Assembly (NCBI GenBank): GCA_030265395.1
Contig: JARFYF010000104.1
Location: 21,947,275-22,011,274, forward strand
DNA: 64,000 nucleotides
Direction: 5' to 3'
Origin: Rhina ancylostomus
Lineage: Eukaryota
The position numbers were made by a program, and so were the translations under genes. Shown piece by piece: positions 12,322 through 62,780 of the stretch. Every line of letters begins with the position of its first letter. Position 1 is the stretch's first letter. The notes beneath the pieces are model-generated. The model had not been told where the DNA came from and searched no databases. It worked only from the letters and a program-made list of their open reading frames with translations.

Positions 12322-13965
12322 AGACACAAGAGACTACAAATGCTGGAATCTGGAGCCAAAAAACAAACTGCTGGAGGAACTCGGTAGGTCATGCAGCATC
12401 TGTGGAGGGAAATGGACAGTCGAAGACTCAGACTGAGACCCTTCATCTCGACTGAAAGAGTTGAGGGGATATAGCTAGAATTAAGGTGTAAGGGGGAGGG
12501 ATCCGGGAAGAGCTGGCGAGTGATGAGTGGATCCAGGTGAGGAGGGGTGATTGGCAGACTGAGCAGATGGTAGGTGGACACAGCAAAGGGCTGCAGATGA
12601 TGGAATCGGATGGGGAAAGAAGTTGGAGCATGGAACCAAATAATGAAGGTCGGGAGGGCAGATGGCAACAGTGGCAGGAGGGAACCCAGTGGGAGGATTG
12701 TGTGGGTGATGGGCACATAGAGGAAGGGAAAGAAACTGGTGATAGGGGACGGGGATGGGGGTTGGGTGTGTGTAGAATATGTGTGGGTAGATCAGGAGAG
12801 AAAGAGACAGAGGGGGAACAGGTTACCTGAAGTTGAGAATTCAATGTTCATGCCATCCAGTTGTAGACATCCAGGCGTAATATGAGGTGCCGTTCCTGTA
12901 GTTTGCATTTGGCCTCACCGTAGCAGCAGAGGAGGCCGAGGACAGACATGTTAGTGTGGGAAAGGGGAGAGGATTAAAATGGCTTGAAACCAGGAGCTCC
13001 AGATGACCGTGGCGGATAGAGTGCAGGTGCTCAGTAATGCAGTCACCTAGTTCGCGTTTGGTCTTGCTGACATAGAGGAGGCCTCATCAAAAGCCCCAAA
13101 TGCAATAGACAAGGTTGGAGGAGGTGCACGTGAATCTCTGTCCCACCTTGAAGGGCCGTTTAGGTTCCTGGATGGTGGTGAGGGAAGAGGTGCAGGGACA
13201 GGTATTACATCTCTTACAGTTGCAGGAGAAAGTGACCAGGGAGTGGGAAGGATGGGTGGCGACAGATGAGCGAACCAGGGAGTCACAAAGAGAGTGGACC
13301 CTTCAGAAAGCAGAAAGGGGTGGGGAGGGGAAGGCGTGACTGGTGGGGGGATCACATTGTAGCTGGCAATAATGGTGAAGAATGNNNNNNNNNNNNNNNN
13401 NNNNNNNNNNNNNNNNNNNNNNNNNNNNNNNNNNNNNNNNNNNNNNNNNNNNNNNNNNNNNNNNNNNNNNNNNNNNNNNNNNNNAGCTGGCAAAAATGTT
13501 GAAGAATGATGTGCTGGATGCGTAGGCTGGTGGGGTGAAAGATAAGGATGAGGGGAACTGTATCCCTGTTCTTTCTTGGGGGAGGGGTGGTGCGAGCAGA
13601 AATATGGGGAATGGAGGAGATGCAGGTGAGGGCTCCATCAACCACAGTGGAGGTGAAGCCCCGTTTCCTGAAAAAGGATGACATCTCAGATGTCCTGGAG
13701 TGGAAGGCCTCATCTCGACAACAGAAGCGGAGAAACTGAGAGAAAGGAATGTCGTCCTTACAAGAGACAGGGTGGGAGGAGGTGTAGTCAAGGTAGGTGT
13801 GGGAGTCAGTGGGTTTGTAGTAAATGTCAGTGGATAGTCTGTCTCCTGAGATGGAGAAAGAGAGATCAAGAAAATGGAGAGAGGTGTTGGAAATGGTACA
13901 AATGAATTTGAGGGTAGGGTGGAAATTAGGAGTGAAGTTGATGAGTTCCGCACAGGTGCAAGAGA
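12322..13965 (-). mobile_element. Penelope-like retroelement, 5'-truncated: RT C-terminus, GIY-YIG endonuclease remnant and 3' pseudo-LTR
   Basis: ORF 13352..14026 reads NFHPTLKF..FLDLSFSISGDRLSTDIYYKPTDSHTYLDYTSSHP.SCKDDIPFSQFLR. GIY-YIG region FTCTSSNLVYCI..GLLYV..TKRELGD near 13030-13140. Pyrimidine-rich pseudo-LTR 12322-12830. Confidence 0.9.
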
Positions 13966-16900
13966 CAGCTGTTTTGAAGATCATTGGCTTCCTGTTTTGA
14001 TGAACTGTGTTTTGAAAGCTACACAATATATGTTTAATATATTAGCTTAATTACTTTGACACAACATCATGGGCTAAAGGGCCTTTTACTGTGCTGTACT
14101 GTTCCATGTTCTTTGTTAGTGCCCCTAACTATAAATGGCCAGAACACTCTTTGAAATAGAAATCGAAATTGACTTCCTCAGTCACTGAAAAGTAAAGGGC
14201 CTTGTAACTTTATTATTGTTGACATCAAGAACAAGAGTAACTATGTTTTTCTGATGCTGCAGTACATATTTGTTCTGTGCAGTTTACAACTCTGTGAAGT
14301 GTGTTCGCAAATAGGGGAGGAAAGACAGATTTCCCAAACTCTGCTCTAATTATGGCAATGGTCCACTAAATGTCAGGGTCACTGTGCCATTGATTCTTTA
14401 CCAAGAATCTTGAAAGACATTATCTTGACCTCTTAGTATTAATTTCAATCAACCTAAAGCTATTTTTTTTCACCCTGCATGTTGTTACTCATGTTAAAAC
14501 CAGAAATCAACACTAAGATAGAATAAACCTGGATAACTGTCCAAATATACTAGAATCTTTTCTATTAACAGTTTACGGCAATAAACATTACAATATTTTA
14601 GAAAATTGAACGATGCTTTAAAAATTATATGCATTAACATATGTATCAATGGAATGAACTGTATTAGCTATCAGGAATGAAAACAAAACATGTCCTTCAA
14701 TAAATAGAGGTACATGTTAAATTCACAGTGCATCGCATGATAAACAACAGATGTAGCAATGTCAAGGCTGTAATCTCAACTCAGCGTTGATGAAAATTGC
14801 TCACAAAGATGTTTTTTTTATGTTTGCACCAGGGAGAGCTGAAACCAGTAACAACGCAACATGGCAGGCCTCAGGGACCTGACTTCAGCAATTGCAAAAA
14901 GTGCTGAAAAAGTTTGCAACACAGGGAATGTTATTGCCTCACAACCAGTTTTGAGAGCTCATTTCATAATTTATGATATAACTTGACTTATGTTCCAAAT
15001 GAATTGAACATTATTAAACTAGAAAATAATCTGCAACATAGCTGTGCAAAACAGTTTGGTCATAGAGTCATACAGCATAGAAACAGGCCCTTCAGGCCAC
15101 CATGACCATGCTGACCACCAAATACCTATCTATAGTAATCTCAATTACCAGCACTTGGTCTGTAGCCTACTGTACATTGGCGATTCAAATGTTCATCCAG
15201 ATTTGGTACTTTTGTGATTTTGGGTCTAATCCTGCCAGGCTGGTCTTCCCCTTGAATCACCACCCAAGGTCTTCACAGCCAGCACCTCTCTTGACTGAAG
15301 ACAGAGGGGCAATCTGCCTAGCCTTCCATACGCTTAAGCCAGGTGACCAGTCCATACAGGAATTAGGTGCTGGTGGCACAGTGCGAAGCCTGTTCCCCAG
15401 AACAAACATGCCAGAATTCGACCTGTTGGGGGAGGGCAGTGATGGGCTTAGTGAAAGATCCAGACCCCTGAATCTGCAGACTCACAACACTTAATGCACA
15501 TGTACTGAACTTACTTCATTTCAAATGGCTGAATGCTGCTGGTTTCATTTGGAACTAATGGCTAAAGCCATCAAGATCCAGCATAATAACTAAACAGTAA
15601 CTTGTTGAAATTATTCCATTATTTTATTTTTCACTCGGTGTTTTGTGACATCTTGAGGTTTCCCATTTGGTTTGCTCTGCTTAAGAGGTGCATTTTAGAA
15701 TGGTATACACTTGACTTATTTAAAAATCTCAGACATTCTCATCTTCTACTCTGCCATTAGTGAAACTTATAGAACTTGTCCTATTGAATGTTGAGTCTTC
15801 CTGACTCAATAAGAATATTATTCCAAGGGGATGTCAGAGAGATGGTAGTGCAGCTGCTTAATGCGATTCTGTTCTCAAATAAACTTCATTTTGAAAATTG
15901 TTTGATCAGGAGACTTTCTTTACTCAGTTCCACAGAGATACACTGAATGAAAACACCTTTTAATTTGACGTCTGCTAGCATGGAAAAATAAATACTGTCG
16001 ACTGTTCAGAGCAATTTATAATGCAGTGGTAAATACAAAATCATCTTTAGATTTCCACATTTCTGATGCATCTGCTCTGCCAGTCTTATTTTTCCCAGGT
16101 AGCTAGTACGCTTGACAGCTGAACTTCACGCATCTAAGAACATGTGATCTTACTATTCATTGCTTGAACTGTCACTGATAGTTTTGATTAGCATGGAGAG
16201 CAGAACTACAATGATTCGCTCTATAAGAAGCTTTTTCTAAAAGACTTTGATTATATTGCTATCCTGCGCAAGTTCCTGACAGCATAACTGAACCAGCTGA
16301 CAAGGGAAACCACTAATCCCTGGCATCAATGCTGTGCAGTACAAATGTGTCATGTTAACTGTCAGAAAATAAGAAAATAACTTATAAGGTGGTCCAAGTA
16401 GATATGAAGGAGAGTTTCTGTGAGTGGATCTCTGTATTTTGGATGCATGGAGCATCAAAAATAAAGGTGTAGGAGCCATTTGCTGCAACATGCCTGAAAG
16501 AGGAGGGAAAGATGTTTTGGCTCTGAGAATGAAAGGCTGGAACATTAATGACGTTTTTTTCCTGACTGCAGCAGGTTCTTTAGCTGAAAATAGAATGTGA
16601 ACCAATATCCATAATAAATGGCATCTGGTAGAACAGGATGAGCAGACTGCAAGTTAATTATGTAATGGAACAAAGTGCAACATCAAATTATGAGCATTTG
16701 AAACAACTTACTTGCACAGACTGAATGAGAAAGTAGCTTTCTAAGTATGAAAACAAAAATTAAGTATGCTAGAGGATCAGTACCTTAACTATGCATTAAA
16801 AACCTGACCTAAGTGTGACTGCTACCAAAGCCAAATGGTCACTTTCCAAATAACATGTTTGCTGTAAAAGAGTGTTGCAACCAATTGGTGGCTCAGTTTG

Positions 16901-18009: not shown

Positions 18010-18970
18010 TTTGAGGTGATGCTGGTGGAAAGGCAAGATGAGAAGGGATGTAATCACTTTACAGAGGGATGTCAGGTTAGGTTAGCAACAAATGGATTAT
18101 AATGTGGGAAAATGAGGAATTGTTGATTTAAAAAACAGAAGAACATTGTGATTTAAGTGGAGAAAAATTGCACAAAGCCACATCACAAAGAGATTTGGGG
18201 ATCCTTGTGCATTAAAGAAAGAAAGTTAGCACATAAGTGAAGCAGGAAATTGAACCATAGAATTGTACAGCACAGAAGAGCCATAAAGTTGTTGACCTAT
18301 CTCTGTGCTGACCTTTTTGCCCATCTACAGTGGAATGTTGGCCCCAATTTCAAAGGCTTTGGAGTATAAAAGTTGGAAAGATATATTGCAATTGTACAAG
18401 GCACTAGTTATACCTCATTGAGAGCACTGTGAATGGTTTTGGTCCCCCTATTTAAAGAAGGATCTCATTTCATTGGAGGTGGTTCAGAGAAAGTTCACTT
18501 GGATGATCCCAGATATGGAGGGGTTGTATTATGAGGAAAGGTTCAACAGGTTGGTACTCTATTCATTGGAGTTTAGAACAATAAGAGGTGACCTTATTGA
18601 AATGTATATGATTCTTAGTGGTCTAGATAGAGTAAAAAAAACAAGAGAGCCTAGTATAAAGGTGAGAGATAGGAGAGGATCTTATGGGTAAGATTTTGTA
18701 CAGGGAATGGTTGATTTCTGGAACACACCGCCAGAGGAGATGGTGGAATCACATTCAATTACAATGTTTAAAAGACATTTAGGCAGGCACATAAATAGGC
18801 AAGGATAGGATCCTAATGCAGGCAAATGGGATTAGTGTAGATGAGCCAAAAGGTTGGCATGGACATGGTGGGCCAAAGGGCCCATTTCTGTGCCATACAG
18901 CTCTATAACTCTAAATGTCAAGAGGATGTTTCCTTTCATGGGGGAGCCCAGAACCAGAGGGCATAATCTT
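18010..18970 (+). mobile_element. Composite CR1 3' fragments
   Basis: EVVQRKFTWMIP..LYSLEFR.IRGDLIEMY (ORF 18473..18691). A second CR1 tail is nested at about 18640-18912. Confidence 0.85.
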
Positions 18971-18975
18971 GGAAT

Positions 18976-21979: not shown

Positions 21980-22530
21980 TTCAGATTGAAGACCCATCAT
22001 CAGAACTGAGAAAGAGAGAAAGCAATTGGGTCTAGCTATCAGAGAAGGTGTGCAAGGGCAATGGGTGGAACAAAGCGAATCTCAATAATAGGGTGAAATG
22101 ATGGACAGCCATTGAATGGACCATTAAATCTGTGTGATGTGTTCCTAATGTTGTGAGATCTGGTTGATGTTATATCAATTTGCCTATTAGGCCATGCTGA
22201 GCAGGCCAGAATATACAAAATATGTTAAATACAGAATATATAAAAAAGAGGGAGAGGAATGGGATGTACAAGTGGCCAGTGCTGATGCAAACAGAAAGAA
22301 AGAGCAAGTTATCTGAAGTTGAAGAATTCAATATTGGGTCCTGCATGTTGCAATGTGATCAGATGAAAAATGAGGTGTTGTTCTTCAAGCTTACGTTGGG
22401 CCTCATTGTAACAGTGCAGGAGGCCACAGACAGGGAGCTCATAGTGGGCGTGGGATGGTGAATTAAAAAGTCAGGGAACCAGAAACTCAGGGTCACTCCT
22501 GTGGACTGAGCTCAAAGTGATCACCCAGTC
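21980..22530 (-). mobile_element. Penelope 3' fragment and pseudo-LTR of an older subfamily
   Basis: Parallels 12820-13050 (gttacctgaagttg.gaattcaat...tgaggtg...ggcctca). Hammerhead core ctgatga on the minus strand at 21997-22003. Confidence 0.65.
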
Positions 22531-23329: not shown

Positions 23330-23570
23330 GGAGACACAGGAGACTGCAGGTGCTGGAATCTGGAGCAATGAGCAAAGTGCTGGACGAACTGGAAGAAAAA
23401 AATGGAGGGTGAATTTTTATACTGCCCCTTCCACCTTTTTATACTGGCTATCTCCCCTCTATCTTTTAGTCCAGATGAAAGATCTTGACCCAAATTGTCG
23501 ACTGTCCATTCCCCTCCACAGATGCTGCCTGACCTGCTAAGTTCCTCCAGCACTTTGTGTGTTGCTTGAG
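23330..23570. repeat. Penelope pseudo-LTR ends in inverted arrangement
   Basis: gagacacaggagactgcaggtgctggaatctggag followed by the opposite-orientation ...cacagatgctgcctgacctgctaagttcctccagca. Confidence 0.7.
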
Positions 23571-26630: not shown

Positions 26631-26879
26631 GATTTTGGGCCCGTGAAGTTGGAAAGATGATTGGATTGGATCACCCTCTTGTCCCTGTCCACCATCAGTA
26701 TGTCATCACCTCAACAATCCCAGAGGTGAAATCACTGAAACATGAGCTCCCTGTTCTCCGTGACCTGGAAGGCTCCTACTATCTGCGCCAGGAGCGCGAT
26801 GGTCTCCTTTTTGGCCCCTATGAAGATAAGGAGAAGATGATGATACAAGACTCTTGGTTAACAGATGGTGTCCCACCAG
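26631..26879 (+). CDS. DMGDH: DMGDH exon 6 equivalent, 249 bp: (G)[82 protein letters not shown](G)
   Basis: tatag acceptor, gtaaaa donor. [26 protein letters not shown] motif. Phase 1/1. Confidence 0.97.
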
Positions 26880-27849
26880 GTAAAAAAGGATGTTATAATT
26901 TGATGTAAAATATCAGTTTCATGCTACGTTACATACATTGAAGGAAAAAATGTTCCCACATAATTACCTTGACTTTTATTTACATTACATATAAACATTG
27001 AAGTATGCATAAAAATCAAAACTACTTATTCACCTCTATGGGCTTGGTATTGGATGAAGTTGGGTTGGGTTAAAGATTGAAAATGAGCTTAGAATATCTG
27101 AACTTCTTGCTATGATGAAGGGGTCTGAAAATTGGCAATGCTCCTTGTGAACCAGGAGGAACAGGAGTATTTCCCTGGTCCTTCAAGGAAACTTCCAGCC
27201 TCCTACAGCCTTGATTAAGAACCATTCTAACCCACCACCTCAGTAACCTTGCACATGCACCATAACCCTCTCGATTATCTATCCCTACCCAGCCCCAATA
27301 ACTGATGTACAACCAGCCATGATTGTCAACCCCCCCCCACCCCCCCCCCNNNNNNNNNNNNNNNNNNNNNNNNNNNNNNNNNNNNNNNNNNNNNNNNNNN
27401 NNNNNNNNNNNNNNNNNNNNNNNNNNNNNNNNNNNNNNNNNNNNNNNNNTATTGCCCATTTTGTTCAACTCTTTTTCCTCACCCCTCTGTGCTAATATAC
27501 CCCCTATATTTTTGCTTCTGGATTCCACCAGTATATTATTTTATTCACCTTTCTGAAATAACAATGCTGCCTGATCTGCAGAGTATTTCCAGAACTTTGT
27601 TTTTATAATAATTGGCTTCATTTCTGTTCCTTTAATGTAGTAAAATAACTCAAGTCACTTCACAGGAGCATAATCATAATTTAATACAGAGCCAAGGAAG
27701 GAGATAATAAGGTAGATAACTAAAAGTCTGGCCAGTGGGGTAGGGTATTTTTAAGGAGACTGTTAAAGGAGAATAGTACACCAGGGAAGGAAGGAGCTGC
27801 AAGGCTTAGGACATAGATGTTGATGACCTGGTTACCAGTGGTGTCAGTC

Positions 27850-28390
27850 CATGACCTCCTCTACTGGCACGTTGAGTCCAGAAGCAGGTTGGAGGAGCAA
27901 CACCTCACATTCCATCTTGTTAGTTTCCAACATTGATTTCTCTATCTTCCAGTAACTACTCCCCTCTGTTTTCCTTCCTCCCCCCCCAATTTTTTCTTTG
28001 TTTTTCCTCATTCCTGTGGCCCCTTTACCCCTTCTCTTTCCCCTCCCCTGCACTCAGGACCTGCCCACCTTGTTCGCTTTATTCCATGGTCCTCTGTCCT
28101 CTCATATCAGATTCCTCTTTCTTCAGCCCTTTGCCTCTTCCACCAAACACTTCNNNNNNNNNNNNNNNCAATCACTTCCCACCTTCTCACATCATTCCCT
28201 TGCCCCCCCACCTGGACTCACCTATCCATGTGCTCCTCCCCCTCCCCCTACCCTTCCCCTACCCTTTTATCTTGGCTTCTATCCTCTTTCTTTCCAGTCC
28301 TGATGAAGGATCTTAGCCTGAAACATTGTTCATTTCTCTCCATAGAGGCTGCCTGACCTGCTGAGTTCCTCCAGTGCTTTGTGTGTGTTG
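27850..28390 (+). mobile_element. Penelope 3' end with pseudo-LTR
   Basis: RLEEQHLTFHL endonuclease C-terminus, pyrimidine-rich tract, then agtcctgatgaagg...gctgcctgacctgctgagttcctccag. Confidence 0.85.
28296..28331 (+). ncRNA. Minimal type I hammerhead ribozyme motif (best-preserved core; 3' arm decayed) in a Penelope pseudo-LTR
   Basis: agtc-CTGATGA-agg atcttag cct-GAAA-cattg. Core boxes intact, stem II agg/cct pairs, and cattg is the CpG-decay product of cgtcg. Confidence 0.6.
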
Positions 28391-30134: not shown

Positions 30135-30895
30135 GGAGGGTAGGTAAGATGGGCAGAGCAATAGTAGATGGAATTTAGTGCTGATAACTGTGAGGTGATG
30201 CATTATAGGAGAATTAATAATAACAGGACAGGCTATGAATGGTAGGCTCCTAGGGAGTATTGAGGAACAGAGGGACTTTGGTGTTCAAAGCCAAGGATCC
30301 CTGTAGGTGGCAGCACAGATAAGGTGGTTACTGTTAAGATGGGATATGGAATACTTGTCTTCATTAGTTGGGGCATGGAAGGTTATTAGTGGTTATGGTA
30401 TAACTACATAACACATTAGCTAAGCCACAACTGGAGTACTGTGTACAGTTCTGGTTACCACACTATGGGAATGAGGTAATTGGACTTAAGATGGTGCAGA
30501 AGAAATTCACCAGGATGTTGCCTGGATTGGAGTGTTTCAGTTAAAGAGATTAGATAGGCTGAGTTTACTTTCCTTTGAGCAGAGGAGGCTGAGAGGGAAC
30601 CTGACTAAGCTATACAGAAGTATGAGGAGCATAGACATGGCTAGTAAGAAATTCTTTCTGTAGCAGGGTGTCTGAAACTAATGGAAAGGGTAGAAACTAA
30701 GGCAAAGGGTAGAAAATTTTAAGGGGATCTGAGGAAGAACTTTTTCACTTAGAGGTAGGTTGGAATCCACAGTGCATCTTGGGGGTGGTGAAGGCAGAGA
30801 CCTACAAGAAGTATCTAGACAAACACTTGAATCCTCAACGCATAGACATGGTGGGTCGAAGGGATTCTTTCTGTGCTGTGTGATTCTATGACTCT
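30135..30895 (+). mobile_element. CR1 3' fragment
   Basis: [27 protein letters not shown] and RRLRGNLTKLY. Ends in a ttctatgactct tail. Confidence 0.88.
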
Positions 30896-31034
30896 TAAGT
30901 TAATGGCACACGCTGAGCAGTTTTTGTTTTCTTGCTGATTGTAGAATGATTTTCAGGGCAGTGGGCTTCTAGCTGCTGTTGGAACATTATTCTTAGAAGC
31001 ACTGAGCAGAGCACTCTAGGTTTGTATTTACAAG

Positions 31035-32090
31035 AGTTTAGAAGAATGAGAGGGGTTCTAATTGAAACATACAAGGTTCTGATAGGGCTGGACTGACTGC
31101 ATGTGGGAAGGATGTTTACCCTGATTACAGTGTCTAGAATGATGGTTCACATTCTCAGGTTAAAGGGCAAGTGATTTAGGACTGAGGTGAGGAGAGATTT
31201 TCTCACCCCATGAATGGTGAACTGGTAGAATTCACTACTACATTGGGCTATAGAGATGAATACATTTGAGAAGGAGATAAATACATTTCTAGATACAAAA
31301 TGCATTAAAGGAAAGTAATGGCACTATGATATTGGGATTGGTTTATTATTGTCACATGTACCAAGTTTTACGATGAAAATATTGTCTTGCATACCGTTCA
31401 TACAGATCAATTCATTACATAGTGCATTGAGGTAGTACAAGGTAAAACAATACAGATTNNNNNNNNNNNNNNNNNNNNNNNNNNNNNNNNNNNNNNNNNN
31501 NNNNNNNNNNNNNNNNNNNNNNNNNNNNNNNNNNNNNNNNNNNNNNNNNNNNNNNNNNNNNNNNNNNNNNNNNNNNNNNNNNNNNNNNNNNNNNNNNNNN
31601 NNNNNNNNNNNNNNNNNNNNNNNNNNNNNNNNNNNNNNNNNNNNNNNNNNNNNNNNNNNNNNNNNNNNNNNNNNNNNNNNNNNNNNNNNNNNNNNNNNNN
31701 NNNNNNNNNNNNNNNNNNNNNNNNNNNNNNNNNNNNNNNNNNNNNNNNNNNNNNNNNNNNNNNNNNNNNNNNNNNNNNNNNNNNNNNNNNNNNNNNNNNN
31801 NNNNNNNNNNNNNNNNNNNNNNNNNNNNNNNNNNNNNNNNNNNNNNNNNNNNNNNNNNNNNNNNNNNNNNNNNNNNNNNNNNNNNNNNNNNNNNNNNNNN
31901 NNNNNNNNNNNNNNNNNNNNNNNNNNNNNNNNNNNNNNNNNNNNNNNNNNNNNNNNNNNNNNNNNTAGTTCCCTGAGGAAGTAGAGGTGACAGGACAGGC
32001 TATTGAGATAGAAGATCGGCCATGATCAGATTGAGTGGGGGAGCAGGCTTGAAGGGCTGAATGGCCTATTCCTGCTCCTATTTTCTACGT
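31035..32090 (+). mobile_element. CR1 3' end interrupted by a younger repeat (about 31330-31990, mostly N)
   Basis: gagtttagaagaatgagaggggttctaattgaaacatacaag before the insert; gggctgaatggcctattcctgctcctatttt tail after it. Confidence 0.75.
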
Positions 32091-38124: not shown

Positions 38125-38355
38125 GTACAGCGCGGTAACAAGCTCTTCCATCCCACCCAATGAGCCCAATTACACCCATGTTAACTGACTAACCCATATG
38201 TCTTTGGAATGTGCGAAGAAACTGGAGCACCCGGAGGAAACCCGTGCAGTCACAGGGGGGATGTATAAACTCCTTACAGACAGCGGCTGGAATTGAACCC
38301 CAATCGCTGGCCTTGTAATAGCGTTACGCTAACCGCTATGCTACTGTGCCGCCCA
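38125..38355 (-). mobile_element. HE1-type tRNA-derived V-SINE
   Basis: Minus strand: gggcggcacagTAGCATAGCGG (A box)...GGTTCAATTCC (B box)...gggtttcctccgggtgctccagtttcttcgcacattccaaagac (V domain). Confidence 0.85.
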
Positions 38356-38997: not shown

Positions 38998-40790
38998 CAT
39001 AGAGTTGTACAGCATGGAAACAGGCCCTTTGGCCCGACCGTCCATGCAACCAAAGTGCCCATCTGCACTAATTCCATTTTCCTTCATTTAGCCCATATCC
39101 CTCTATGCCTTTCCTACCCATGTGCCTGACCAAGTGCATTTTAAAAACTGTGATTGCACCTGCCTCTACCACCTCCTCTTCTGGCAGCTTGTTCAATACA
39201 CCCACCACTCTCAGTGTGAAAAACCTGTTCCTCAGACCTCCTTTAAATATTTCCCCTTTCACCTTGAACCCATGTCTTCTAGTTTTAGAATCCCCTACTC
39301 TTTGAAAAATACTGTTACTATCTACCCTCTCTATGCCCCTCATAATTTTATAAACTTCTATGAGGCCTCCTGCGGTCCAGTGCGAAGAATCCCAGCCCAT
39401 CTGATTTTTCCTTGTAACTAAAGCCCTCCATTCCAGGCAACATCCTGGTGATGCTCTTCTGCACTCTTTCTAGTGCTACTACGTTCTTTCTGTGACCAGA
39501 ATTGCACACAATATTCTAAGTGTAGCCTAACCAATGCCTTGTACAGCTGCAACATGTTGCCCCAACTCTTTTTTTAAATTTTACTTACAGTGTGGTAACA
39601 GGCCCTTCTGGCCCAACGAGTCCANNNNNNNNNNNNNNNNNNNNNNNNNNNNNNNNNNNNNNNNNNNNNNNNNNNNNNNNNNNNNNNNNNNNNNNNNNNN
39701 NNNNNNNNNNNNNNNNNNNNNNNNACCCCAAATTAACCTACCCGTACGTCTTTAGAATGTGGGAGGAAACTGGAGCACCCGGAGGAAACCCACGCAGACA
39801 CTGGAGAACGTACAAACTCCTTACAGGCAGTGATGGGAATCGAACCCCAATCACTGGCGCTGTAATAGCGTCGCGGTAACCGCTACACTACCGTGCTATG
39901 CTACCGTGGCTCTTGCCTCTGAAGACAAGCAAGCTAAATGTTGTCTTTACTACCATATTCATCTGCGTCACCATTTTCAGGAAGCTATGAAATTGTATGC
40001 CAAGATCCTTCTATACATCAACACTTCTAAGATCCCTGCCATTTGCTGATTTGTAATTTGCTCTGACCAATATCCATTACCTTACACTTGTCCAGATTAA
40101 GTTCCACTTACCATTCCTCCACACAACTTTCCAGCTGGTCTGTGTCCCTCTGTATCCTTAGGCATCCATTCTCACCAAGTACAACTCCACCAATCTTCAT
40201 GAGGTCAGCATACTTACTTATCAGACCACAGACATTCTCATCCAAGTCAACAAACAACACAGGTCCCAGTGTCAATCCCTGCAGTACACCACTGGGTACA
40301 GACTTCCAGTCAGCAAAACAACCCTTTATCAATACCTTCTGCCTCCTATCGCCAAGCCAATTTGGGATCCAGTTTGCCAAAACAGCTTGGACCCCATGTG
40401 CCCTAACATTTTGGACCAGCGCACCGTGTGGGACCTTGTCAAAAGCTTTGCTAAAGTCGATGTATAGCATGTCTACTGCCTTTCCTTCATCAATTTTCTT
40501 AATAACCTCCTCAAAAAAGTCAATCAGATTCATGAGGCAGGATTTCACATGCACAAAACCATGTTCATTTNNNNNNNNNNAATGTTTTCCATTAGTTTTC
40601 CAACTACTGATAAAAGGCTCACCAGCCCATAGTTTCCTGGCTTATCCCTACCACCCTTCTTAAATATGGAAACAACGTTAGCTGCCCTCCAGTCCTTACC
40701 CGTTACAAAAATCTTCATCAAACCCTCAGTAAACTCCTACCTTGCATTCCATAACATTTCATCAGGCCATGGGGATTCTTCCACCTTGAT
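38998..40790 (-). mobile_element. CR1 RT and 3' end, interrupted by an HE1 SINE
   Basis: ORF 40108..40554 KSCLMNLIDFFEEV...AVDMLYIDFSKAFDKVPHG...SGVLQGLTLGPVLF..KYADLMKIGG; ORF 39068..39400 LIEVYKIMRG...FFTLRVVGVLNKLP. Confidence 0.93.
39575..39900 (-). mobile_element. HE1-type V-SINE, second copy, with an internal gap
   Basis: Closely matches 38125-38355 (ggaggaaactggagcacccggaggaaaccc...aaactccttacag...gaatcgaaccccaatc). Confidence 0.85.
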
Positions 40791-41522
40791 GAGCACCAAC
40801 GATCAAGGAGAGAGATTTACATAGTTATGAAAACGAAGAGGCAATGCCATTTAAAAAGAGAAAAATACTGCAGTTGCTGGCAATCTGAAATTAAAATAGA
40901 AATTACAAGTAGTTCTGCTGTAATGCTGTTTCCATAAAGTGAATTGGATTGATGAATTGGGAAACACTATTTGTATTATGTGGATCGAATTGGTTATAAC
41001 ACAATTTTGATCAAGAACTAACCCCACAGTAATCATTGCCTCTTCAGTACCCAGACTGCCAGTTTGACCATGGTAGGCCATTTAAGACAATTACTTTAGA
41101 TATTGACAAGCAATATCTTCTATTGATATTTGTGCAGTGATGCACTATTAAACAATGCACTGTACAGCCTTTAGTACTTTTAGCTTGCAGTAACAAAATA
41201 AACTTGCAGCTTTGAAAATCCTGCGGGTAAAATAACTTTGTTATTGCGAGTCTGAAGCTCTCCGGCCCCAACCCCATTTTTCTCATTGACACACAATTGT
41301 TTTTATAACACAATTTTCTGTAACTCAGGATTTCTTAGAATGCAACTATCATGGTATAGCAGAATGGCCTGTAGTTGAAACATTTAGCCAGTCAGGTAGC
41401 ATCTGTGGACTTGGGCTGGTTGTCAATGTGTTTCATTTTTAAAAGGAATGCTATAATTATCAATAACAGGATCAACAATATATTAGCAAATAATTTGACA
41501 TGCTTCCTTTTTCCTTGTTTAG

Positions 41523-41676
41523 TTGGATATCCCAAAGAAGAGAGATTTGGAGGACGGCCAACAGAAAGAGTAAGTGGAATTTATGAAACATTGAAAGACA
41601 AGGCATCCATGGGTTTCCATGCCGGATGGGAACAGCCACACTGGTTCTACAAACCTGGAGATGATCCTGGATATAG
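41523..41676 (+). CDS. DMGDH: DMGDH exon 9 equivalent, 154 bp: (V)[50 protein letters not shown](R)
   Basis: cttgtttag acceptor, gtaagt donor. [12 protein letters not shown] motif. Phase 1/2. Confidence 0.97.
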
Positions 41677-42336
41677 GTAAGTGGGAGCATTGAGAATGAA
41701 TGTCAGTGGCAGTATTAATCAAAAGTGTGGTCAGAAAACCTTTAGATCTGTTTCCTGTCCACTTATATTATTCACATATAAACAAACTAGGCACAAACTA
41801 TCAAGCTCTCAGTACGTACATCTCAGTATTGGGAATTGTTGACAAAATAAGAAGAGTTTTAATAAAGCAGGCTTCAGGCATTGAAAAGAGCCAGAATTGT
41901 GTTAAAGACCATTTACATATTTATAGTTGGATTTATTTATAATTTATAATTAATAGTTGGATGTGAAGTAGAAACAACAGTTTTGTCTTAAAATGTATGA
42001 TCTGGAAACCAAATTGGTCTAAGTATAAAGTTGTATTAATTAATTTTTGAAAATACCGTGAGCTGAAAGAAGACATTAAATCTAAAATTCTGTGACCTAA
42101 ATAAGGAGAAAATCTACTTTATTTTCTGAAAGATTGGGTGGATTTTCTTTCATGATATCAGTGCTGCTCCAGTTGTGATAGGAAAATAATGCCAGCCACA
42201 TGAGTGACATGGCACTGACTCCAGAGAACTAACAAGGTCAAATTTACTTTAATTTTTATATGCCTGCTCCTGGAAGTCCACTTGGGAGCTCACCATTGGG
42301 TGGAAGGTAGGAAATTTTGTGCAGAACATATGTAAG

Positions 42337-42419: not shown

Positions 42420-43480
42420 CTTCCCTTCTCATGGCACCTTTCCATGCAACAGCAGGAAATGAAACACCTGTATTTTTATCTCCCTCCTTTCCATCCAAAT
42501 ATTCTTTCTGGATGAAGCAGCAATTTATTTGTATTTCATCAGATTTAGTATATTGCATCCCATGCTTACAATGTGGTCTCCTTTAATAAACAGAAAATTA
42601 TGGAAATATTCAGCAGGACAGGCAGCCTCTGTGGAGAGAGAGAGAGATGGAGTTAGCATTACAGGTTGATGTCCTTTTGTCAGATCATTGACCTGAAATG
42701 TAAACTGCTTCTCTCTCCACATGTATTGCCTGACCTGCTGAATGTCTCCAGCATCTGTAATCTTTTTCTTTTCACTAAGATCCCTCCTGTACGTTGGGGA
42801 AATGAAATGCAGTTTGGATGCCCACTCAGAACACCTCCGTTCAATATGAATGTCTCTGAGCTTACAGTTGCTGATCACTTTGTCTGTCCCCCATCTGACC
42901 TCTTTGCCTTTAATCTCCTAAACTACTCCTACAAAGCTCTTTGTGAGTTCAGGAAAAAAACACCTCATATTCTCATGGCTTATGGCACATAAGGAGGCCA
43001 TTTGGTCCATCAGGTCTATGCCATGATCTAACTCTCCACATTATAGCTTTCTGGATTTGACACCAAATTTGACCACTTTAGATAATGAAATGTTCTGGCT
43101 TTGTGTCTCACAATTCCAACATTGAGTTTTTTTAAATCTCTCCTCACCCGGTAATTTCAAATGTTATCACCTTCTCGTATTTACATCTTCCAAGGCCTAC
43201 CTGTTCTTCCTTGCTAGCCTTGATCACTCTCACTCAGCTGGTACCTCCACTACTTGTCTCATTTAATCTCTCCTGGCCTTTGGCATATTACAGACCTTCC
43301 CTTACGTTTTCTCAACCCTTTCCCTCTTTCTCTGCAACTTGAAACTTGTTTTATTTCTTAAGTTTTGGTAGCTCCTATGAAGAAAACATCAACTTGAAAT
43401 ACTAACTTTGTTCATCTACAGATGCGGACTGAGTATTTCCAGCATTTTCCCTTTTTATTTCATCTTTTCAGCATCTGTGG
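42420..43480 (+). mobile_element. Old Penelope GIY-YIG and pseudo-LTR fragment containing a fold-back insertion
   Basis: LVYCIPCLQCGLL|YVGEMKCSL..SEHLRS split by the 42583-42783 insert; degenerate pseudo-LTR end at 43365-43480. Confidence 0.7.
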
Positions 43481-44690: not shown

Positions 44691-45849
44691 CAGCGACCTT
44701 CTACCTGTGGAACTCAATATTATCAAGGAGTTAACACCTTCAAAAGATATAGGAAAATGAAAGATTGAAACCTTACTCCCTAAATGTAACTTAGGCTCAG
44801 AAATGTCAACTCATATGCAGTTAAAACAGAAAATGTTAGACTCAGCAGGTCTGGCTGCATTTTTAGCATAAGAGACAGAGTTAATGTTTCAGGACTGAGA
44901 TCCTTCATTAGTATTCCAGCATCTACAGTCTGTTTGACTTTCTTATCATTTGGCTTATTTGTACATTGCTTTTGTATCTCAGTCCATGAACATGAATTTT
45001 AAACAGTTTTTAAAAGACTTTTTAAATAAAAATTGATCTTTCAAAGTTATAAATTCATCATTTCTACATTTGTATGTTTACAGATGAGTTAACTATGTCC
45101 CAAGACAGAAATATACGCACTGTGGTTCTGAGGAGGACAGAGAGAGAAACAGAAGAGGAGGAGAAGCGAGAGAGAGAGAGACCTTTTCTTTGCAGCCTTA
45201 TGAGTAAAAGCTTCTACAGTTAGAGGGGAATGGTGGTAGACTGTAGTGGGGTTTTGCCCAATAAAATATAAAGTGTAGGAATCTGGCCTTAAAACTACAT
45301 TCACATGACTGTCAACATTTTGGATGCAGAAAAATCCATCTCTCTCAAAAAAACTCCATGCTTTATTTCTTTGTACTGATGGAAGTTCAATAAAAGTTGG
45401 GACATAGTCTTTTGAAGGGAATAGAAACAAAGGTGAAATTCGGTTGGAGGAGACTCAGAATTCCCCATCTGTCAGAATCAGATTTATTATCACTGACATA
45501 TGTCATAAAATTTGTTGTCACCTCTGATTTTTCCCTTCTNNNNNNNNNNNNNNNNNNNNNNNNNNNNNNNNNNNNNNNNNNNNNNNNNNNNNNNNNNNNN
45601 NNNNNNNNNNNNNNNNNNNNNNNNNNNNNNNNNNNNNNNATTATTATCACAGACATATGTCATAAAATTTGTTGTCACCTCTGATTTTTCCCTTCTCCCA
45701 AAGTTAAGTTTCACCCGTGATGTAATAGGTAACAGTGAATGAGTGGGGGATGTTTGTGAAGGGGAGAAGAGACAAAGAATCTTGCTTGGGGGGGTGGGGG
45801 GGGCTGAGGGGAGAAGAACAGCAGATACATTCCTTGGGCCTGGTAGCTT

Positions 45850-50489: not shown

Positions 50490-52140
50490 AACAGCAGATG
50501 CTGCAAACCTGAAACAACAGCAAATGCTGGAAACATTCAGCAAGTCAGGCAGAATATGTGGAAAGAGAAACAGATGTAACATTTCAGGTTGAAGACCTTT
50601 TGTCAGAACTGGGAAAGAGAGAAACTAATTAGTTTTAAGTTGCTGAGGGGGTGGAATGAATGGGACAAAGGAAATATCTGATAGGTTGAAACTAGGAGTT
50701 GCTGGAGGGAATACGTTGTAGAGGTTATCTGGTCAATGGGTTAATGGGGGAAGTTGGGAGGAGACAAAATGAACAAAAACTGTGAAATGAGGGCAGTTAG
50801 AAAATGAAGATACAAACAAGGGAGCATCAAAATTTGTGAAACACAGGACTGTAGAACATGTCCAGCAATGGAAAGAGAAAAGCCAAGTCAATATCACAGA
50901 TGGAAGTCTGACAGCAGAAATGGCTGGGCAGAGAAAAGAAGTTACCTGAAATTGGAGTACTTGTTAATGATTCTAGAAGTTTGCAACATGCGGTGCCGGG
51001 AGTGGTGGTGGAAGCAGATATGATAGAGGTGTTTAAGAGGCTCCTAAATAGGCACATGAATATGCAGAGAATGGCAAGATATGGACCATATGCAGGCAGA
51101 AGGGATTAGCTNNNNNNNNNNNNNNNNNNNNNNNNNNNNNNNNNNNNNNNNNNNNNNNNNNNNNNNNNNNNNNNNNNNNNNNNNNNNNNNNNNNNNNNNN
51201 NNNNNNNNNNNGACCATATGCAGGCAGAAGGGATTAGCTATTATTAGCTTAATTAGTTTGGTATAACATCGTGGACCATAGGGCCTGTTCTTATGCTGTA
51301 ATGTTCTATATCCAGATGGAAGATATATACTTATATGAACCTCATTATAACAGAGTAAGACACCAGAGTTGGAGTGGGATGTAGACTTAAAGTGGCAGGC
51401 GATAGAGAGCTCTGAGTCACCCCTGCGAACTGAATACCAATGCTCTGCATATCAGTCACCTAGCCTGCATTTGGTTTTTCCAGTGTAGGGGAGACCACAT
51501 TGTAAATGCTAAGTACAGTACACCAAGAGTGAAAGAAGTACAAGTGAGCTGCTGCTTCACTTGTCAGGAATATTTGGCTCCCCAAATGGTGGGAAGGGAA
51601 GACAGAAAAGGACAGATATTGCAGCCCCTGAAGTGGGAGAGTACCCTAAGAGGGTGAGTGATTAGAGAAGATGGAAGAAAGGACCAGAGAGTTGCAAAGT
51701 GAATGGTTCCTTTGAAATAATGAAAAAGGATGGGGAGGGAAAATGTATCTGGAGGGAAAAGGGTAAAATCCTGTTGGAGCTGGTGGAAATTGCGAAAGAT
51801 GATCCAGCTAATATGGTAGCTGGTGGGGCGGAAGGTGGAGACCAAAGGAACTCTGTCTTTGCTTTGTCCAGCAGGAGAGGGAGTGAAAGCAGAGGTGCAG
51901 GAATATTTGAAAAGCGGTCAAGGGCTCTGTCATGGTTCAGGAAAAAGCAAGATATTACAGAGGCACGAGTGTGGAAAGTCTTGTCATTAGGACAAATACA
52001 ACAGAGGCAAACAGGGAGTATGGAATGGAGTCTGTATAAGAGGCAGGGTGAGAGGAAGTATATTTGAAATGGCTGTGGGAGTCTGAAGGCCATGTCAAGG
52101 CTAGGTCTGCTCTCCCATTTGGACATATAAGATCCAGAGG
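50490..52140 (-). mobile_element. Penelope-like element fragment (RT thumb, endonuclease remnant, pseudo-LTR) interrupted by a CR1 tail at about 50985-51310
   Basis: ORF 51955..52143 PSDSHSHFKYTSSHPASYTDSIPYS; VSTFRPTSYHISWIIFRNFHQLQQD; pseudo-LTR 50490-50640. Confidence 0.85.
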
Positions 52141-53929: not shown

Positions 53930-54280
53930 AAAAACATTAAAAATTGGAGCAGGAGCACACCCTATCTATGATCACTGTTCTCTCTCATTATCATGTTTCC
54001 ACTATCTCCCCATATCCTTGATGCTTTTTGCATTTAGAAACTTATCTATCTCCTTCTTAAAGATTTTCAACAACTTGGCCTCTACAGCCTTCTGTGGTAA
54101 TAAATTCCACCAATTCAGCACCAACTAAGTGAAGAAGTCTCTCTTCACCTTAATCCTAAACCCTTTGATGTCTAACCTGACATTGTGACCCCTTGTTCTC
54201 GACATTCTTTAAATTCTAGTGAATACCAACCTAGTGTGCCCTGCCCAATGCTTCCAAGAATAATCTTTGTGAATTAGGCC
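53930..54280 (-). mobile_element. CR1 3' end
   Basis: aaaaacattaaaaattggagcaggag...ggcctctacagccttctgtggtaataaattccac...gtgaagaagtctctc. Confidence 0.75.
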
Positions 54281-54445
54281 CATGTCCCTGGTAAGATCTT
54301 ACAGTAGAAGTGGGGGACAAAAGAGAACCATAGCCATTTATAGCAGCAGAGTTGCCGTAGAAGGATAAAGTATGGCGTTTTTAATGATGAAATTTCAAAC
54401 AGCCCGCAGAAGTTCCCTATTTTAATTCACTCTCCTTTCCCTCAG

Positions 54446-54576
54446 TTGGGTTATATAAATATCAGTCATATGATTACCCCAAGAGGTCGAGTTTATGCAG
54501 AAGTGACAATCAGCCACTTATCAGAAGGGGAGTTCCTGCTGGTGACAGGGTCAGGCTCTGAGCTCCATGACTTAAG
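54446..54576 (+). CDS. DMGDH: DMGDH exon 11 equivalent, 131 bp: LGYINISHMITPRGRVYAEVTISHLSEGEFLLVTGSGSELHDL(R)
   Basis: cctttccctcag acceptor, gtgagt donor. GcvT-like folate-binding domain, TGSGSELHDLR motif. Phase 0/2. Confidence 0.97.
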
Positions 54577-55675
54577 GTGAGTTTGGATTTTAAAAAAATT
54601 ATAACTTTTGAAATTAATTTATTTGTTTAACCATTTTGTTTGATTGAGTTAATTGGAGTGAATGCAAAAGCATTTCGCTCTTTTTCAAAAGACTAATGAA
54701 GATGCATATTATATTTATGTTAAAAAGGAAAACACTTAAATCTTTATTGTCTTTCCACATTGCAACTTTTCCTTCTGGATCATTATTTTCCAAGTAAGAT
54801 AGCAGACCGGTTTGACTGCAGATCTTACGATCTCACAGAGCAGATTGGCTGAGTTGTTTTCTAAGGCACCCATTTTACTTATTCATTGACAGAACATGGG
54901 CATCATTGGAAAGATCGTCATTTATTATTCAGCTCAAACAGATTGGTTGACAATGCTACTCTGGAGGATGGTAAAACCCAATTACATAAGGACAGGATTC
55001 TCATCACATATTGGCCATCCTAGGCAAGGACAGCCAGCATCCTCTCCTAGTGTAGGGAATTTTTAACTTGGTAATACTATAAAGCAAATTATATTGAATT
55101 GACCACCATATTTATGCATATCCATTGAAATCAGTGGAATGGACATTGGAAACTGTCTAGAGTCGATAGCTGATCCAATTTTGCCTCTTTTATCTTATTG
55201 CCAAAAGTCAAAATTAGTCCCAAGTTGAATTCATCAGTCTGTCAGATTTGTGGCATATATAATAACCAGTAATATTGTACCTTGGTAGTAGTTTAGCTCA
55301 ACAGTAGGACTTTCCTCTAAATCAGACTGTTATAAATTGATATTCAAGAAGTCATCTCACCACGTTTTCAAGAGCAATTAGGGATGTTTACAACGTATAA
55401 ATTGAGAAAAAGATGCCTCTCAAGGACCTGAGCACACTAGACATGAAATTTAACACGTTTCCTTGTTCAAGTGTTAAATGGCCTCCTTCTGTGGGCAGGG
55501 GTAAAATAGCTCACCACAAGCAAGTCCAAAGCCTGCCATATTGGTAAAAGCCAAAAGATTGGTGCCCACTGCCCCCACCTGACGCGGGTGTTTTAAACAT
55601 TTACTTTTTTTTATTCCTTTCAAAAGTGAAACGAAGATTTGCCATTCATTTGATTTATTATTTTCATGTTTGTAG

Positions 55676-55893
55676 ATATATAGAAGAAGAGGCAACAAAT
55701 GGTGGCTATGAGGTTGATATTCGTAATGTTACTGATGAAATCGGGGTGTTGGGTGTGGCAGGTCCATTTTCACGGAAAGTTCTCCAAAAACTCACAAAAG
55801 TAGACTTGAGTGGAAAAGAATTTAAGTTCCTACAGTGTAAGCCTCTTACTTTGGCTGACATTCCCCTTACTGCAATGAGGATCTCCTATACAG
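55676..55893 (+). CDS. DMGDH: DMGDH exon 12 equivalent, 218 bp: [72 protein letters not shown](G)
   Basis: tttgtag acceptor, gttggt donor. GVLGVAGP and RISYTG motifs. Phase 2/1. Confidence 0.97.
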
Positions 55894-56504
55894 GTTGGTG
55901 TCTGATTACCAATGGCTTGGCTCATAGCATTGCCTCAGATGTTTTTAAATGTAAAACGTTTATAATTAAATAAGATTGCTGCCACTAAAAAAAATCCTAA
56001 TGTGAGTAATTTTACAAATTTGCTCACCTGGCCCAGAGTCTCACCCATTAGAAATGTTTATTAGGAATTTGAACTCAGGCCCACTATCCATTAATTTTTT
56101 ATTTGTTGCAATTAATGACATGGAAATCATGGGAAGTTCACTCCCAGACTTTTGATCTACCATCCCATAAGCTAAAACTACAAATCATGCACACAGATTT
56201 GTAAAATTAGCCCTGGCATTCATCCTGCTTGTCACCACTGAAATTAAAATTTGAGTTGAAAAAAATCAGATGTTCTGTGGAGTCAGAAGAGACTTCACAA
56301 TGCCATGCCCAGCTGCATAGCTATGTACTTTGTTGTTTGTCTGCTTGTAAATAAGTTAAAGATTTTTTTAAAGCACTTTTGAAAGTAGATCATTTTTGAA
56401 GCAATCCTAATTGATGGGGTTTGCCCTGTTTTTGTGCTCTAAAGTCCAAGTTAATTCACCTTAAATTTGCATTAATTTTGAGGCAATATATATGGTAATA
56501 TTTA

Positions 56505-60112: not shown

Positions 60113-60279
60113 TTGGAATTGGAATTTGGTTTATTATTGTCAAATGTACCATGAAAAACTTGCCTTGCATACCATTCATACAGATTAATTTATTGCACAG
60201 TGCATTGAGGTAGTACAAGGTAAAACAATAACAGAATGCAGAATAAAGTGTAACAGCTACAGAGAAAGTGCAATACAGG
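60113..60279 (-). repeat. Young LINE-tail-like repeat, also at 31330-31458 and inverted at about 38515-38645
   Basis: ttggtttattattgtca.atgtacca...gtgcattgaggtagtacaaggtaaaacaata is nearly identical between copies. Minus-strand AATAAA-type tail. Confidence 0.65.
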
Positions 60280-62107: not shown

Positions 62108-62257
62108 GTGAGCTTGGCTGGGANNNNNNNNNNNNNNNNNNNNNNNNNNNNNNNNNCCATAATGGAAGCAGGCCAGGAATTTGGAATCGACAACTTTGGA
62201 GCATATACCATGAACTCTTTGCGGCTTGAGAAAGCATTTAGAGGTTGGGGAGCAGAG
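62108..62257 (+). CDS. DMGDH: DMGDH exon 13 equivalent with an internal N-gap: (G)ELGWE...[34 protein letters not shown]
   Basis: ctctag acceptor, gtgagt donor. Completes RISYTGELGWE, and carries the [12 protein letters not shown] motif. The 33-N gap is probably about 8 nt too short. Confidence 0.93.
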
Positions 62258-62647
62258 GTGAGTAGCAAAGGCATATTAAATATGTTTCTTTCTAACTCTG
62301 GCGATGTGAGGTTGGATTGGTAAAGGCACTGATACAAAAGTAGATCCTTACAGAAGTTAGAAAGATAAGAGAAGTAGACTGCATTTGGTGTTAGCAAAAA
62401 AAATGTTAAACCCTCTGGATGCCATCTGTTTGAAGACCAGCTTATTTTAACTCTTAGATTTTGGTCATATCCCATTGAACAGGATTTTGTCTTGGGCAGG
62501 TCAAGTTTGTAGGCAGGGGGTCTGTCTGCCCACAGTCACTGCAGTAAATTTCAGGGGAGAGGTTCAAAATTATTTTGCAGGTGAGAAGGATGTTGCTGCC
62601 CTCTCAGCTCCTTTCTTTCTATTTCCTTTTCTGTTCTTTTGCATGCT

Positions 62648-62780
62648 GGTCTTAATGTAGGGTCTCAACCTGAAACGTTGACCATCCCTTTGCCTCCACG
62701 GATGCTGCCTGACCCACTGAGGTCCTCCAGCAGTTTTTTCACGCCAGATTCCAACATCTGGAGTCTCTTGCGTCTCCTGC
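62648..62780 (+). repeat. Penelope pseudo-LTR end with a hammerhead relic (62648-62683)
   Basis: ggtc-ttaatgt-agggtctcaacct-GAAA-cgtt-gacc followed by gcctccacggatgctgcctgaccc...cctccagcag. Confidence 0.65.

What the first reader, a model, noticed from the sequence alone, without database searches (positions are those of the whole stretch)
12418..62683. Dispersed family of 36-nt minimal hammerhead ribozyme motifs in Penelope pseudo-LTRs, with covarying stem I
Seen: a motif of constant length, stemI-CTGATGA-agg(g)..cc(t/c)-GAAA-CGTC-stemI'. Copies: 28296-28331 (+, core intact), 23468-23503 (+, agtc/gact), 12418-12453 (-, agtc/gact) and 62648-62683 (+, ggtc/gacc). Partial copies: 44879-44915 (-, stem II agga/tcct, CTAATGA), 50573-50610 (-, CTGACAA), 21980-22007 (-, CTGATGA), about 6901-6937 and about 62912-62948. 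Stem I keeps pairing as agtc/gact and ggtc/gacc, with an agtt/aact variant pieced together from partial copies. Helix III is reduced to the palindrome ACGT. Established: CUGANGA...GAAA...NUH is the hammerhead core, and Penelope-like elements carry minimal type I hammerheads thought to cleave as dimers. Inference: this genome holds very many ribozyme relics, about nine in 64 kb. Every copy here has a lesion, often CpG decay, which fits age or selection against self-cleavage within DMGDH pre-mRNA.
Basis: partly seen in the sequence, partly recalled or inferred. Interest (0 to 1): 0.72.

Follow-up and report, generated by a model that had tools for sequence, protein, structure and literature searches.

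The report
Penelope hammerheads, two broken-core lineages
These repeats are worn-out end pieces of a known jumping gene (Penelope-like) that carries a tiny RNA motif predicted to cut itself; the one surprise is that two large branches of the family spread with a normally fixed letter of that motif changed, which suggests the cutting is likely not needed for jumping.

Summary
The motif is real and of a known kind: a minimal type-I hammerhead in the end repeat (pLTR) of a Neptune/Nematis-type Penelope-like element, decaying in DMGDH introns of what is likely a cartilaginous fish. Corrections: the 28296 copy has lost its cleavage site; ggtc/gacc is not a covarying family, only pair I.1 (C-G versus U-A) is; there is no sign of selection against cleavage (107 sense versus 104 antisense copies; core decays like the tail). 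Added: several 'lesions' are inherited. Lineages with U4A (1,659 exact hits) and A9C (1,798) cores stand against 39 for a neutral core change, and both sit behind RT-endonuclease remnants. Short copies start at the first base of stem I (24 of 90), not at the cut site, so templates were likely uncut. Cleavage is untested. The scan noted this family before, in this genome and other shark genomes; a look-up for the U4A/A9C lineages found nothing.

The parts
12418..12453 (-). Hammerhead motif, U4A lineage (A2), 3' pLTR of a decayed RT-endonuclease element
12325..12417 (-). Tail of the same pLTR
12454..12822 (-). Pyrimidine-rich 3' UTR between ORF stop and motif
12802..13320 (-). Broken CX4CX2C linker and GIY-YIG endonuclease (stops, frameshifts)
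   Evidence: relatives hit Pfam GIY-YIG below cut-off
13486..13965 (-). Broken RT thumb of a Penelope-like element, 5'-truncated
   Evidence: relatives continue into RVT_1 below cut-off
28296..28331 (+). Motif, canonical lineage A1, 4-nt deletion at the cleavage site; ORF end 340 nt upstream
23468..23503 (+). Motif, U4A lineage, with UTR stub; inverted tail at about 23331-23390
62648..62683 (+). Motif, A9C lineage by its tail (read by eye against loci; automatic labels varied); starts at stem I
62912..62948 (+). Motif, lineage B (14-nt spacer), with inverted partner at 62861-62910
50573..50610 (-). Motif, lineage B; endonuclease remnant upstream at about 51386-51729
44879..44915 (-). Motif, lineage B, 5'-truncated
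21980..22007 (-). 5' part of motif, lineage B; ORF end 301 nt upstream
6901..6937 (+). Motif, lineage B
2758..2937 (.).
3335..3477 (.).
42587..42754 (.).
43385..43449 (+). Decayed lineage-B copy
27564..27604 (+). Tail-only fragment
26639..26878 (+). Host exon of DMGDH (others lie in frames 7498-7983, 9060-9284, 41375-41677, 54344-54577, 55548-55970, 62108-62320 and just upstream of the window)
   Evidence: human DMGDH E 4e-43; motifs; Pfam

Best explanation
These are decaying copies of the end repeat of a Penelope-like retrotransposon that carries a minimal type-I hammerhead motif; the intact form is predicted to cut only as a dimer (untested), the short copies likely arose by reverse transcription of uncut RNA, and cutting is likely dispensable for spread. 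Steps: (1) shown: the motif lies about 250-500 nt behind the stop of an RT-linker-GIY-YIG ORF and is followed by a tail ending at two preferred places about 35 nt apart. (2) Inferred: the element RNA begins at or near the first base of stem I; the element's RT starts inside the tail and runs to that end, giving a ~100-135-nt copy, often beside an inverted copy. (3) Shown: once inserted, copies decay without regard to strand or to catalytic position. (4) Shown: two abundant lineages carry U4A or A9C as inherited characters and sit behind RT-endonuclease remnants; inferred: they multiplied with a slow or dead ribozyme. (5) Predicted: a lone motif folds into a rod in which the core pairs with the cleavage site, so single intronic copies would not cut the DMGDH pre-mRNA.
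For: Counts against controls. ORF linkage: 28 of 59 RT-thumb loci have a tail downstream, 26 with a readable motif: 12 U4A-type, 11 C9-type, 3 canonical (the query was a U4A-type element, so the shares are biased). Match to the published consensus (PMC4209133 Fig. S3 text). 5' ends: 24 of 90 non-B copies start at -2..+3 of stem I (rate 0.089 per nt against 0.010 elsewhere, p 2e-13; DNA upstream is foreign, identity 0.22 against 0.87-0.91), 1 of 90 at +31..+35 around the cut site. 3' ends: 30 of 86 at +96..+105, 39 of 86 at +129..+135, as for the two RT start sites of Anolis Poseidon, whose ribozyme mutants still insert in vitro (PMC11167929). Decay: core non-CpG 113 of 1,026 against tail 718 of 5,702 (p 0.16); 107 sense and 104 antisense copies. 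Variant cores: 1,659 and 1,798 exact hits against 39 for A6U. Rod fold for 3 of 4 natural copies folded.
Against: No cleavage, transcription start or expression was measured. No full-length element with two pLTRs was recovered from this gapped assembly, so the 5' pLTR is inferred. The 5' pile-up is weak in lineage B (9 of 100). Clear target-site duplications were found in only 2 of 24 short copies (control 6 of 552). The youngest and the oldest lineages both keep the canonical core (tail divergence A1 0.06, C 0.08, B 0.16; U4A and A9C lineages 0.14), and GAAA and ACGU are fixed in all lineages, which argues for some constraint. A tree of ORF-end DNA supports only the A1 clade (100/98, including one U4A row) and leaves U4A and A9C rows unresolved. 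Tail-based labels mix lineages (A2 cluster: 13 A, 8 T at position 4).
Confidence: 0.8

Rival explanations
1. The variant cores still cut: the element's protein, or the dimer, rescues U4A and A9C (for A9C the extra A before stem II could take the place of A9), so cleavage remains part of the life cycle.
For: The Anolis Poseidon hammerhead cuts only with the element's protein (PMC11167929). U4C slows cleavage yet permits viroid infectivity (PMC3088659 passage). The rest of the core, the palindrome and 3 bp of stem I are kept in both lineages.
Against: In a mutational scan of another hammerhead all other single changes in the CUGA turn had low activity (PMC9901934 passage). That A9 changes are strongly deleterious is recalled, not read (searches found nothing). 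Copies do not start at the cut site.
Confidence: 0.3
2. What is conserved is mainly a DNA or structural signal (transcription start, RT stop, protein-binding rod), and the hammerhead chemistry is a passenger.
For: 5' pile-up at the first base of stem I, whose context fits the recalled initiator pattern YYANWYY in all five lineage consensuses. U4 and A9 are unpaired in the predicted rod. D. virilis Penelope has an internal initiator/DPE promoter (PMC2377424 passage). Naiad elements spread without canonical hammerheads (PMC8557442).
Against: The full core is conserved across animal phyla. The ACGT lies 1-2 nt off the recalled DPE spacing. Other unpaired core letters (C3, GAAA) did not change in any lineage.
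Confidence: 0.25
3. The short units are a self-propagating non-autonomous family (SINE-like or retrozyme-like), not dead-on-arrival truncations.
For: Fixed 5' and 3' ends and very high copy number; a 35-nt tandem array of the A9C motif (L297); retrozymes derive from pLTRs and occur in one sampled chondrichthyan (bioRxiv 2026.07.22.740005).
Against: Short and long copies share the same lineage-diagnostic letters; of 20 loci with the exact 36-mer only two (one site, across an assembly gap) show a second same-strand copy within 200 nt; no unit-length tandem arrays of 150-400 nt were seen.
Confidence: 0.15
4. Copies in DMGDH introns are broken because the host selects against self-cleavage of pre-mRNA.
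For: No window copy is fully intact; retrozymes are reported depleted in Xenopus introns.
Against: 107 sense vs 104 antisense (p 0.89); intact canonical core 10 of 55 sense vs 9 of 56 antisense (p 0.81); core changes 9.0% sense vs 13.1% antisense (p 0.046, uncorrected, the wrong direction); core decays like tail. Only 6 of 111 copies keep core plus palindrome on either strand, so none intact among 15 is expected.
Confidence: 0.04
5. The sharp 5' boundary is a splice acceptor: the 3' UTR is an intron from a donor at the ORF stop to the AG of stem I, as in D. virilis Penelope.
For: Pyrimidine tract plus CAG at stem I and GGTAA at the ORF stop in most copies; the D. virilis intron ends at helix I.
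Against: No exact spliced junction in the genome; 0 of 12 examined one-mismatch hits (of 21) were spliced. Copies starting at stem I have unrelated or inverted DNA upstream, not a shared exon. Some lineage-B ends lack the GT.
Confidence: 0.07

Closest known systems
Minimal hammerheads (min-HHR) in pLTRs of metazoan Penelope-like elements (Cervera and De la Pena 2014, PMC4209133; main text parts 1-2 of 4 and supplement part 2 of 3 read)
   Same: CUGANGA plus one extra base, stem II closed at 10.1-11.1, GAAA, palindromic 15.2-16.2, NUH, 3-4-bp stem I, U-rich 5' flank; thousands of single dispersed copies in several families; a few behind RT-EN; opposite-strand pairs 100-700 nt apart.
   Different: No cartilaginous fish in their text or searchable supplement. 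Stem II is short (4-5 bp). Two lineages carry U4A or A9C; the core variant they report is U3-A8, and no alignment row that I saw has A4 or C9.
Neptune/Nematis clade EN+ Penelope-like elements (Craig et al. 2021, PMC8557442; passages read)
   Same: RT, CX2-5CxxC linker, C-terminal GIY-YIG; 5' truncation, adjacent inverted copies, optional 30-40-bp tail, hammerhead in the pLTR.
   Different: Clade not placed on a tree with references; no full-length copy recovered.
Poseidon of Anolis carolinensis, PAc (Frangieh et al. 2024, PMC11167929; parts 1-2 of 4 read)
   Same: Two RT start sites downstream of the hammerhead that define the tail; uncut RNA as template; no RNA ends at the cut site.
   Different: PAc's ORF starts inside the hammerhead; here the ATG in the core meets a stop after about 15-20 codons. 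By PMC8557442 the Poseidon clade lacks the linker seen here.
Non-LTR retrozymes (PMC7229834 passages; bioRxiv 2026.07.22.740005 parts 1-3 of 5 read)
   Same: Type-I hammerhead, derived from PLE pLTRs, present in a chondrichthyan.
   Different: Retrozymes are tandem arrays of 170-400-nt units, mostly with canonical hammerheads; these are dispersed single or inverted ends with the minimal form.

Membership tests
PLE minimal hammerhead (lineages A1, B, C) | Core CUGANGA + extra base ... GAAA ... NUH as lineage consensus | tested here: met
   against consensus
PLE minimal hammerhead (lineages A2, D) | Core CUGANGA as lineage consensus | tested here: not met
   U4A 1,659 and A9C 1,798 exact hits vs 39 for A6U; C at 9 in 19 of 21 tail-defined D copies
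PLE minimal hammerhead | Palindromic 15.1-16.1 (ACGU) in place of helix III | tested here: met
   all five lineage consensuses; self-duplex -3.1 kcal/mol
PLE minimal hammerhead | Stems I and II with compensatory change | tested here: inconclusive
   One double change at I.1 between lineages; 10.1-11.1 is G-C, G-U or A-U; outer pair I.4 mismatched in C and D. No formal covariation statistic; few independent lineages
PLE minimal hammerhead | Location in the pLTR behind an RT-EN ORF | tested here: met
   3' repeat. A 5' repeat was not recovered
PLE minimal hammerhead | Self-cleavage as dimer | not testable with these tools
   needs an in vitro assay
Neptune/Nematis EN+ PLE | RT followed by CX2-5CxxC linker and C-terminal GIY-YIG | tested here: met
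   window 12802-13965 and loci L095, L109, L112, L270, L311; Pfam RVT_1 E 8e-4 and 5e-3, GIY-YIG E 0.012 and 0.02, all below cut-off
Neptune/Nematis EN+ PLE | Placement in RT phylogeny | not tested
   no reference proteins obtained (one search found none; none)
EN+ PLE insertions | 5' truncation, inverted partner, two 3' ends 30-40 nt apart | tested here: met
Non-LTR retrozyme | Tandem arrays of 170-400-nt units with a hammerhead in each | tested here: not met
   not seen in the window or in 20 exact-match loci; one 35-nt array elsewhere; no genome-wide array search
Rfam hammerhead families | Match to a curated model | tested here: not met
   no hammerhead hit in the window at E<=10; intact copies were not scanned

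The most novel reading that the evidence does not exclude
A natural knockout experiment: two protein-coding Penelope lineages in one vertebrate genome each lost hammerhead catalysis (U4A, A9C) and still made tens of thousands of copies, while the motif's first base kept marking the 5' end of the copied RNA; the PLE hammerhead would then be kept chiefly as a start-site or structural signal, with cleavage optional.
Probability: 0.3. Interest if true: 0.65.

Novelty: new variant of a known kind. Interest (0 to 1): 0.38.

Why it matters
The feature as reported is expected wherever Penelope-like elements are abundant. What it adds is a test of an open question: the role of the hammerhead in endonuclease-bearing PLEs is stated to be unclear, and it may merely ride along (PMC8557442); the one in vitro study found it unnecessary for insertion (PMC11167929). 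Sister lineages with canonical, U4A and A9C cores give matched natural sequences to assay, and core-based ribozyme searches would miss close to half of the 13-nt-spacer copies in this genome (3,457 variant against 2,625 canonical exact hits). For the host gene it most likely does not matter.

Tried and rejected
Rfam scan: nothing relevant. Protein homolog search with the RT thumb among longer proteins: none; PDB sequence search with an RT piece: none. GGTC/GACC as a family: rejected. Host selection against cleavage: no support. Splicing of the 3' UTR: no junction in DNA; no joint at the predicted places among the rows shown for eight contig sets of related organisms (contigs, other species, tables cut, so this is no evidence either way). 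Expression: no RNA holder listed. First 5'-end mapping by peer extension timed out, and its rerun was confounded by shared inverted structures; replaced by linear lineage references. TSD search was near background. Lunse, Weinberg and Breaker 2016 (dimer cleavage of PLE hammerhead variants) is not held: only its title and a review's summary were seen, and it may already describe such core variants. A review of core mutants could not be fetched; two searches for A9 or U4 mutant data gave nothing useful. The preprint's supplements were not seen and may name the chondrichthyan motifs.
Full report
Observation. All nine stretches are present. They are the 5' part of a unit of about 135 nt, motif plus tail; a profile search finds further copies in the window, several as head-to-head pairs, and nothing above 1.1 bits in the reversed window. 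The window is G000:C104:21947275-22011274 of a 2.2-Gb genome. The host gene is DMGDH on the + strand (E 4e-43 to the human protein), with exon-bearing frames from just upstream of the window to 62320; the two copies beyond 62320 are intronic by inference only.

More than chance. Both core boxes with a 13-nt spacer occur 2,625 times (control 15), with a 14-nt spacer 950 times (control 15). In 118 stretches from kinase and myosin genes plus the window (1.12 Mb without N; orientation from Pfam exon hits; some stretches are flanks assumed to lie inside the gene), a profile of the tail alone finds 211 copies, 188 per Mb, 15 of them in the window. Extrapolated, that is a few hundred thousand relics, of which about one in a hundred keeps both boxes exactly.

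What it belongs to. Upstream of the 12418 copy lie a broken RT thumb, a CX4CX2C linker and a GIY-YIG remnant; ORF ends or endonuclease remnants also precede 28296, 21980 and 50573. The RT thumb has 10,202 first-look candidates in the genome. Of 59 such loci fetched, 28 have a tail downstream. Relatives give weak Pfam RVT_1 and GIY-YIG hits, below cut-off. The linker marks Neptune and Nematis (PMC8557442 passages). No element with both repeats was recovered; the assembly is gapped.

Lineages. Clustering 182 copies on the tail alone yields groups whose cores differ: A1 (CUGAUGA, GUC cut site), C (CUGAAGA, GUU), B (14-nt spacer, AGUU/AACU, GUU), A2 (CAGAUGA, U4A) and D (CUGAUGC, A9C). Genome counts with the same downstream box are 1,659 for U4A (control 16) and 1,798 for A9C (control 2), against 39 for A6U, a single change that can only come from decay (control 26). 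The variants are thus over forty times above the decay baseline. Among the 26 RT-linked loci with a readable motif, 12 are U4A-type, 11 C9-type and 3 canonical (the query was itself U4A-type). So the 'lesions' at 23468, 12418 and 62648 are partly inherited. Median tail divergence is 0.06 (A1), 0.08 (C), 0.14 (A2, D) and 0.16 (B): the youngest and oldest lineages are canonical. A tree of 28 ORF-end sequences supports only the A1 clade, so the order of events is open, and tail-based labels are imperfect.

Covariation. Pair I.1 changes on both sides between lineages (C-G 18 of 30, U-A 20 of 30), and the pair closing stem II is G-C, G-U or A-U. The outer pair of stem I is not kept in C and D. GGTC/GACC occurs once against 80, 4 and 2 for the other three combinations.

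Decay and strand. Sense 107, antisense 104 (p 0.89). Among 111 copies that cover the motif, the canonical core is intact in 10 of 55 sense and 9 of 56 antisense (p 0.81), and 6 also keep the palindrome. Non-CpG core sites changed in 113 of 1,026 against 718 of 5,702 tail sites (p 0.16); CpG sites in 254 of 565; sense cores are if anything better kept (47 of 521 against 66 of 505, p 0.046 uncorrected). In the 13-nt lineages G12 lies in a CpG, so ordinary methylation decay removes the general base early. Host selection against cleavage is not needed.

Ends. Of 104 non-B copies, 14 were dropped for N at the boundary; 24 of the other 90 start within -2..+3 of the first base of stem I, nine times the rate elsewhere (p 2e-13), with foreign DNA upstream. 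One starts at +31..+35 around the cut site and four rows at +29..+30, two of them the same locus. Lineage B shows a weaker peak (9 of 100). 3' ends cluster at +96..+105 (30 of 86) and +129..+135 (39 of 86; my reference ended at +135). This matches the two internal RT start sites and the uncut template reported for Anolis Poseidon (PMC11167929). I infer that the RNA begins at stem I, or that RT stops there; the initiator-like context is a recalled pattern. A splice-acceptor reading found no junction in DNA (0 of 12 examined).

How it most likely works. The element RNA carries the motif; RT starts in the tail and copies uncut RNA, often only as far as stem I, and an inverted copy is often laid beside it (inferred). 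A single motif has no helix III and is predicted to fold as a rod in which G5-G8 pair with the cleavage-site strand (3 of 4 natural copies folded); two copies could share a 4-bp ACGU helix of about -3 kcal/mol. Published minimal hammerheads were inactive as monomers and weak as dimers (PMC4209133). U4 changes lower activity in other hammerheads; for A9 I rely on recall. The simplest reading is that cleavage is optional for spread; rescue by protein or dimer is the main rival.

Comparison and novelty. The family is a member of the class described in 2014 for fish, coelacanth, Xenopus and reptiles. A search for hammerhead, shark and Penelope together returned one review that names the shark only for the motif's shape; a 2026 preprint finds retrozymes in one chondrichthyan. 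I did not find U4A or A9C lineages in what I read, but the most relevant paper, Lunse et al. 2016, was not available. The scan has noted this family repeatedly, including the shared start point; a look-up for the variant cores returned nothing. Verdict: real, largely known, ordinary for the host gene; the two variant-core lineages are a modest, testable addition. Interest 0.38.

Noticed in passing
L297 (G000:C1:120934316-120934412): Head-to-tail array of four to five 35-nt units made of the A9C motif alone, joined at stem I; shorter local duplications of the motif occur in L044 and L176. Such arrays could place two cores close enough to dimerise.
   Followed up: partly
window 12823-12829 and 52 ORF ends: The ORF ends in an Arg codon plus TAA that reads as a splice donor (AG/GTAAC or CG/GTAAC), and a pyrimidine tract plus CAG precedes stem I; no spliced form was found.
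   Followed up: yes
lineage B loci L051-L080 and window 50573, 42646-42682: Lineage B seems to hold sub-lineages, one with C at position 7 (CpG decay then gives CTGACAA) and one with an A-U pair closing stem II.
   Followed up: partly
window 40108-40641 (-), 39068-39469 (-), 1088-1501, 4445-4883, 18560-18915, 30202-31092: Fragments of a CR1/L2-type LINE (RVT_1 E 5e-10) and its 3' ends; family label inferred.
   Followed up: no
window 38256-38349 and 39803-39896: Two 80%-alike copies of a tRNA-like SINE head in reverse orientation; label inferred.
   Followed up: no
L099:1878-2005, L111:2817-2919, L302: Short motif-plus-tail copies inserted inside or against other Penelope ORF remnants, consistent with insertion into pre-existing copies.
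   Followed up: no
window 51084-51111 / 51212-51239 and L007/L008: Identical sequence on both sides of 100-N gaps: likely assembly duplications, so apparent tandem motifs across gaps should not be counted as dimers.
   Followed up: partly
one search list: The A6U control hits are skewed to the minus strand (24 against 15); probably chance.
   Followed up: no
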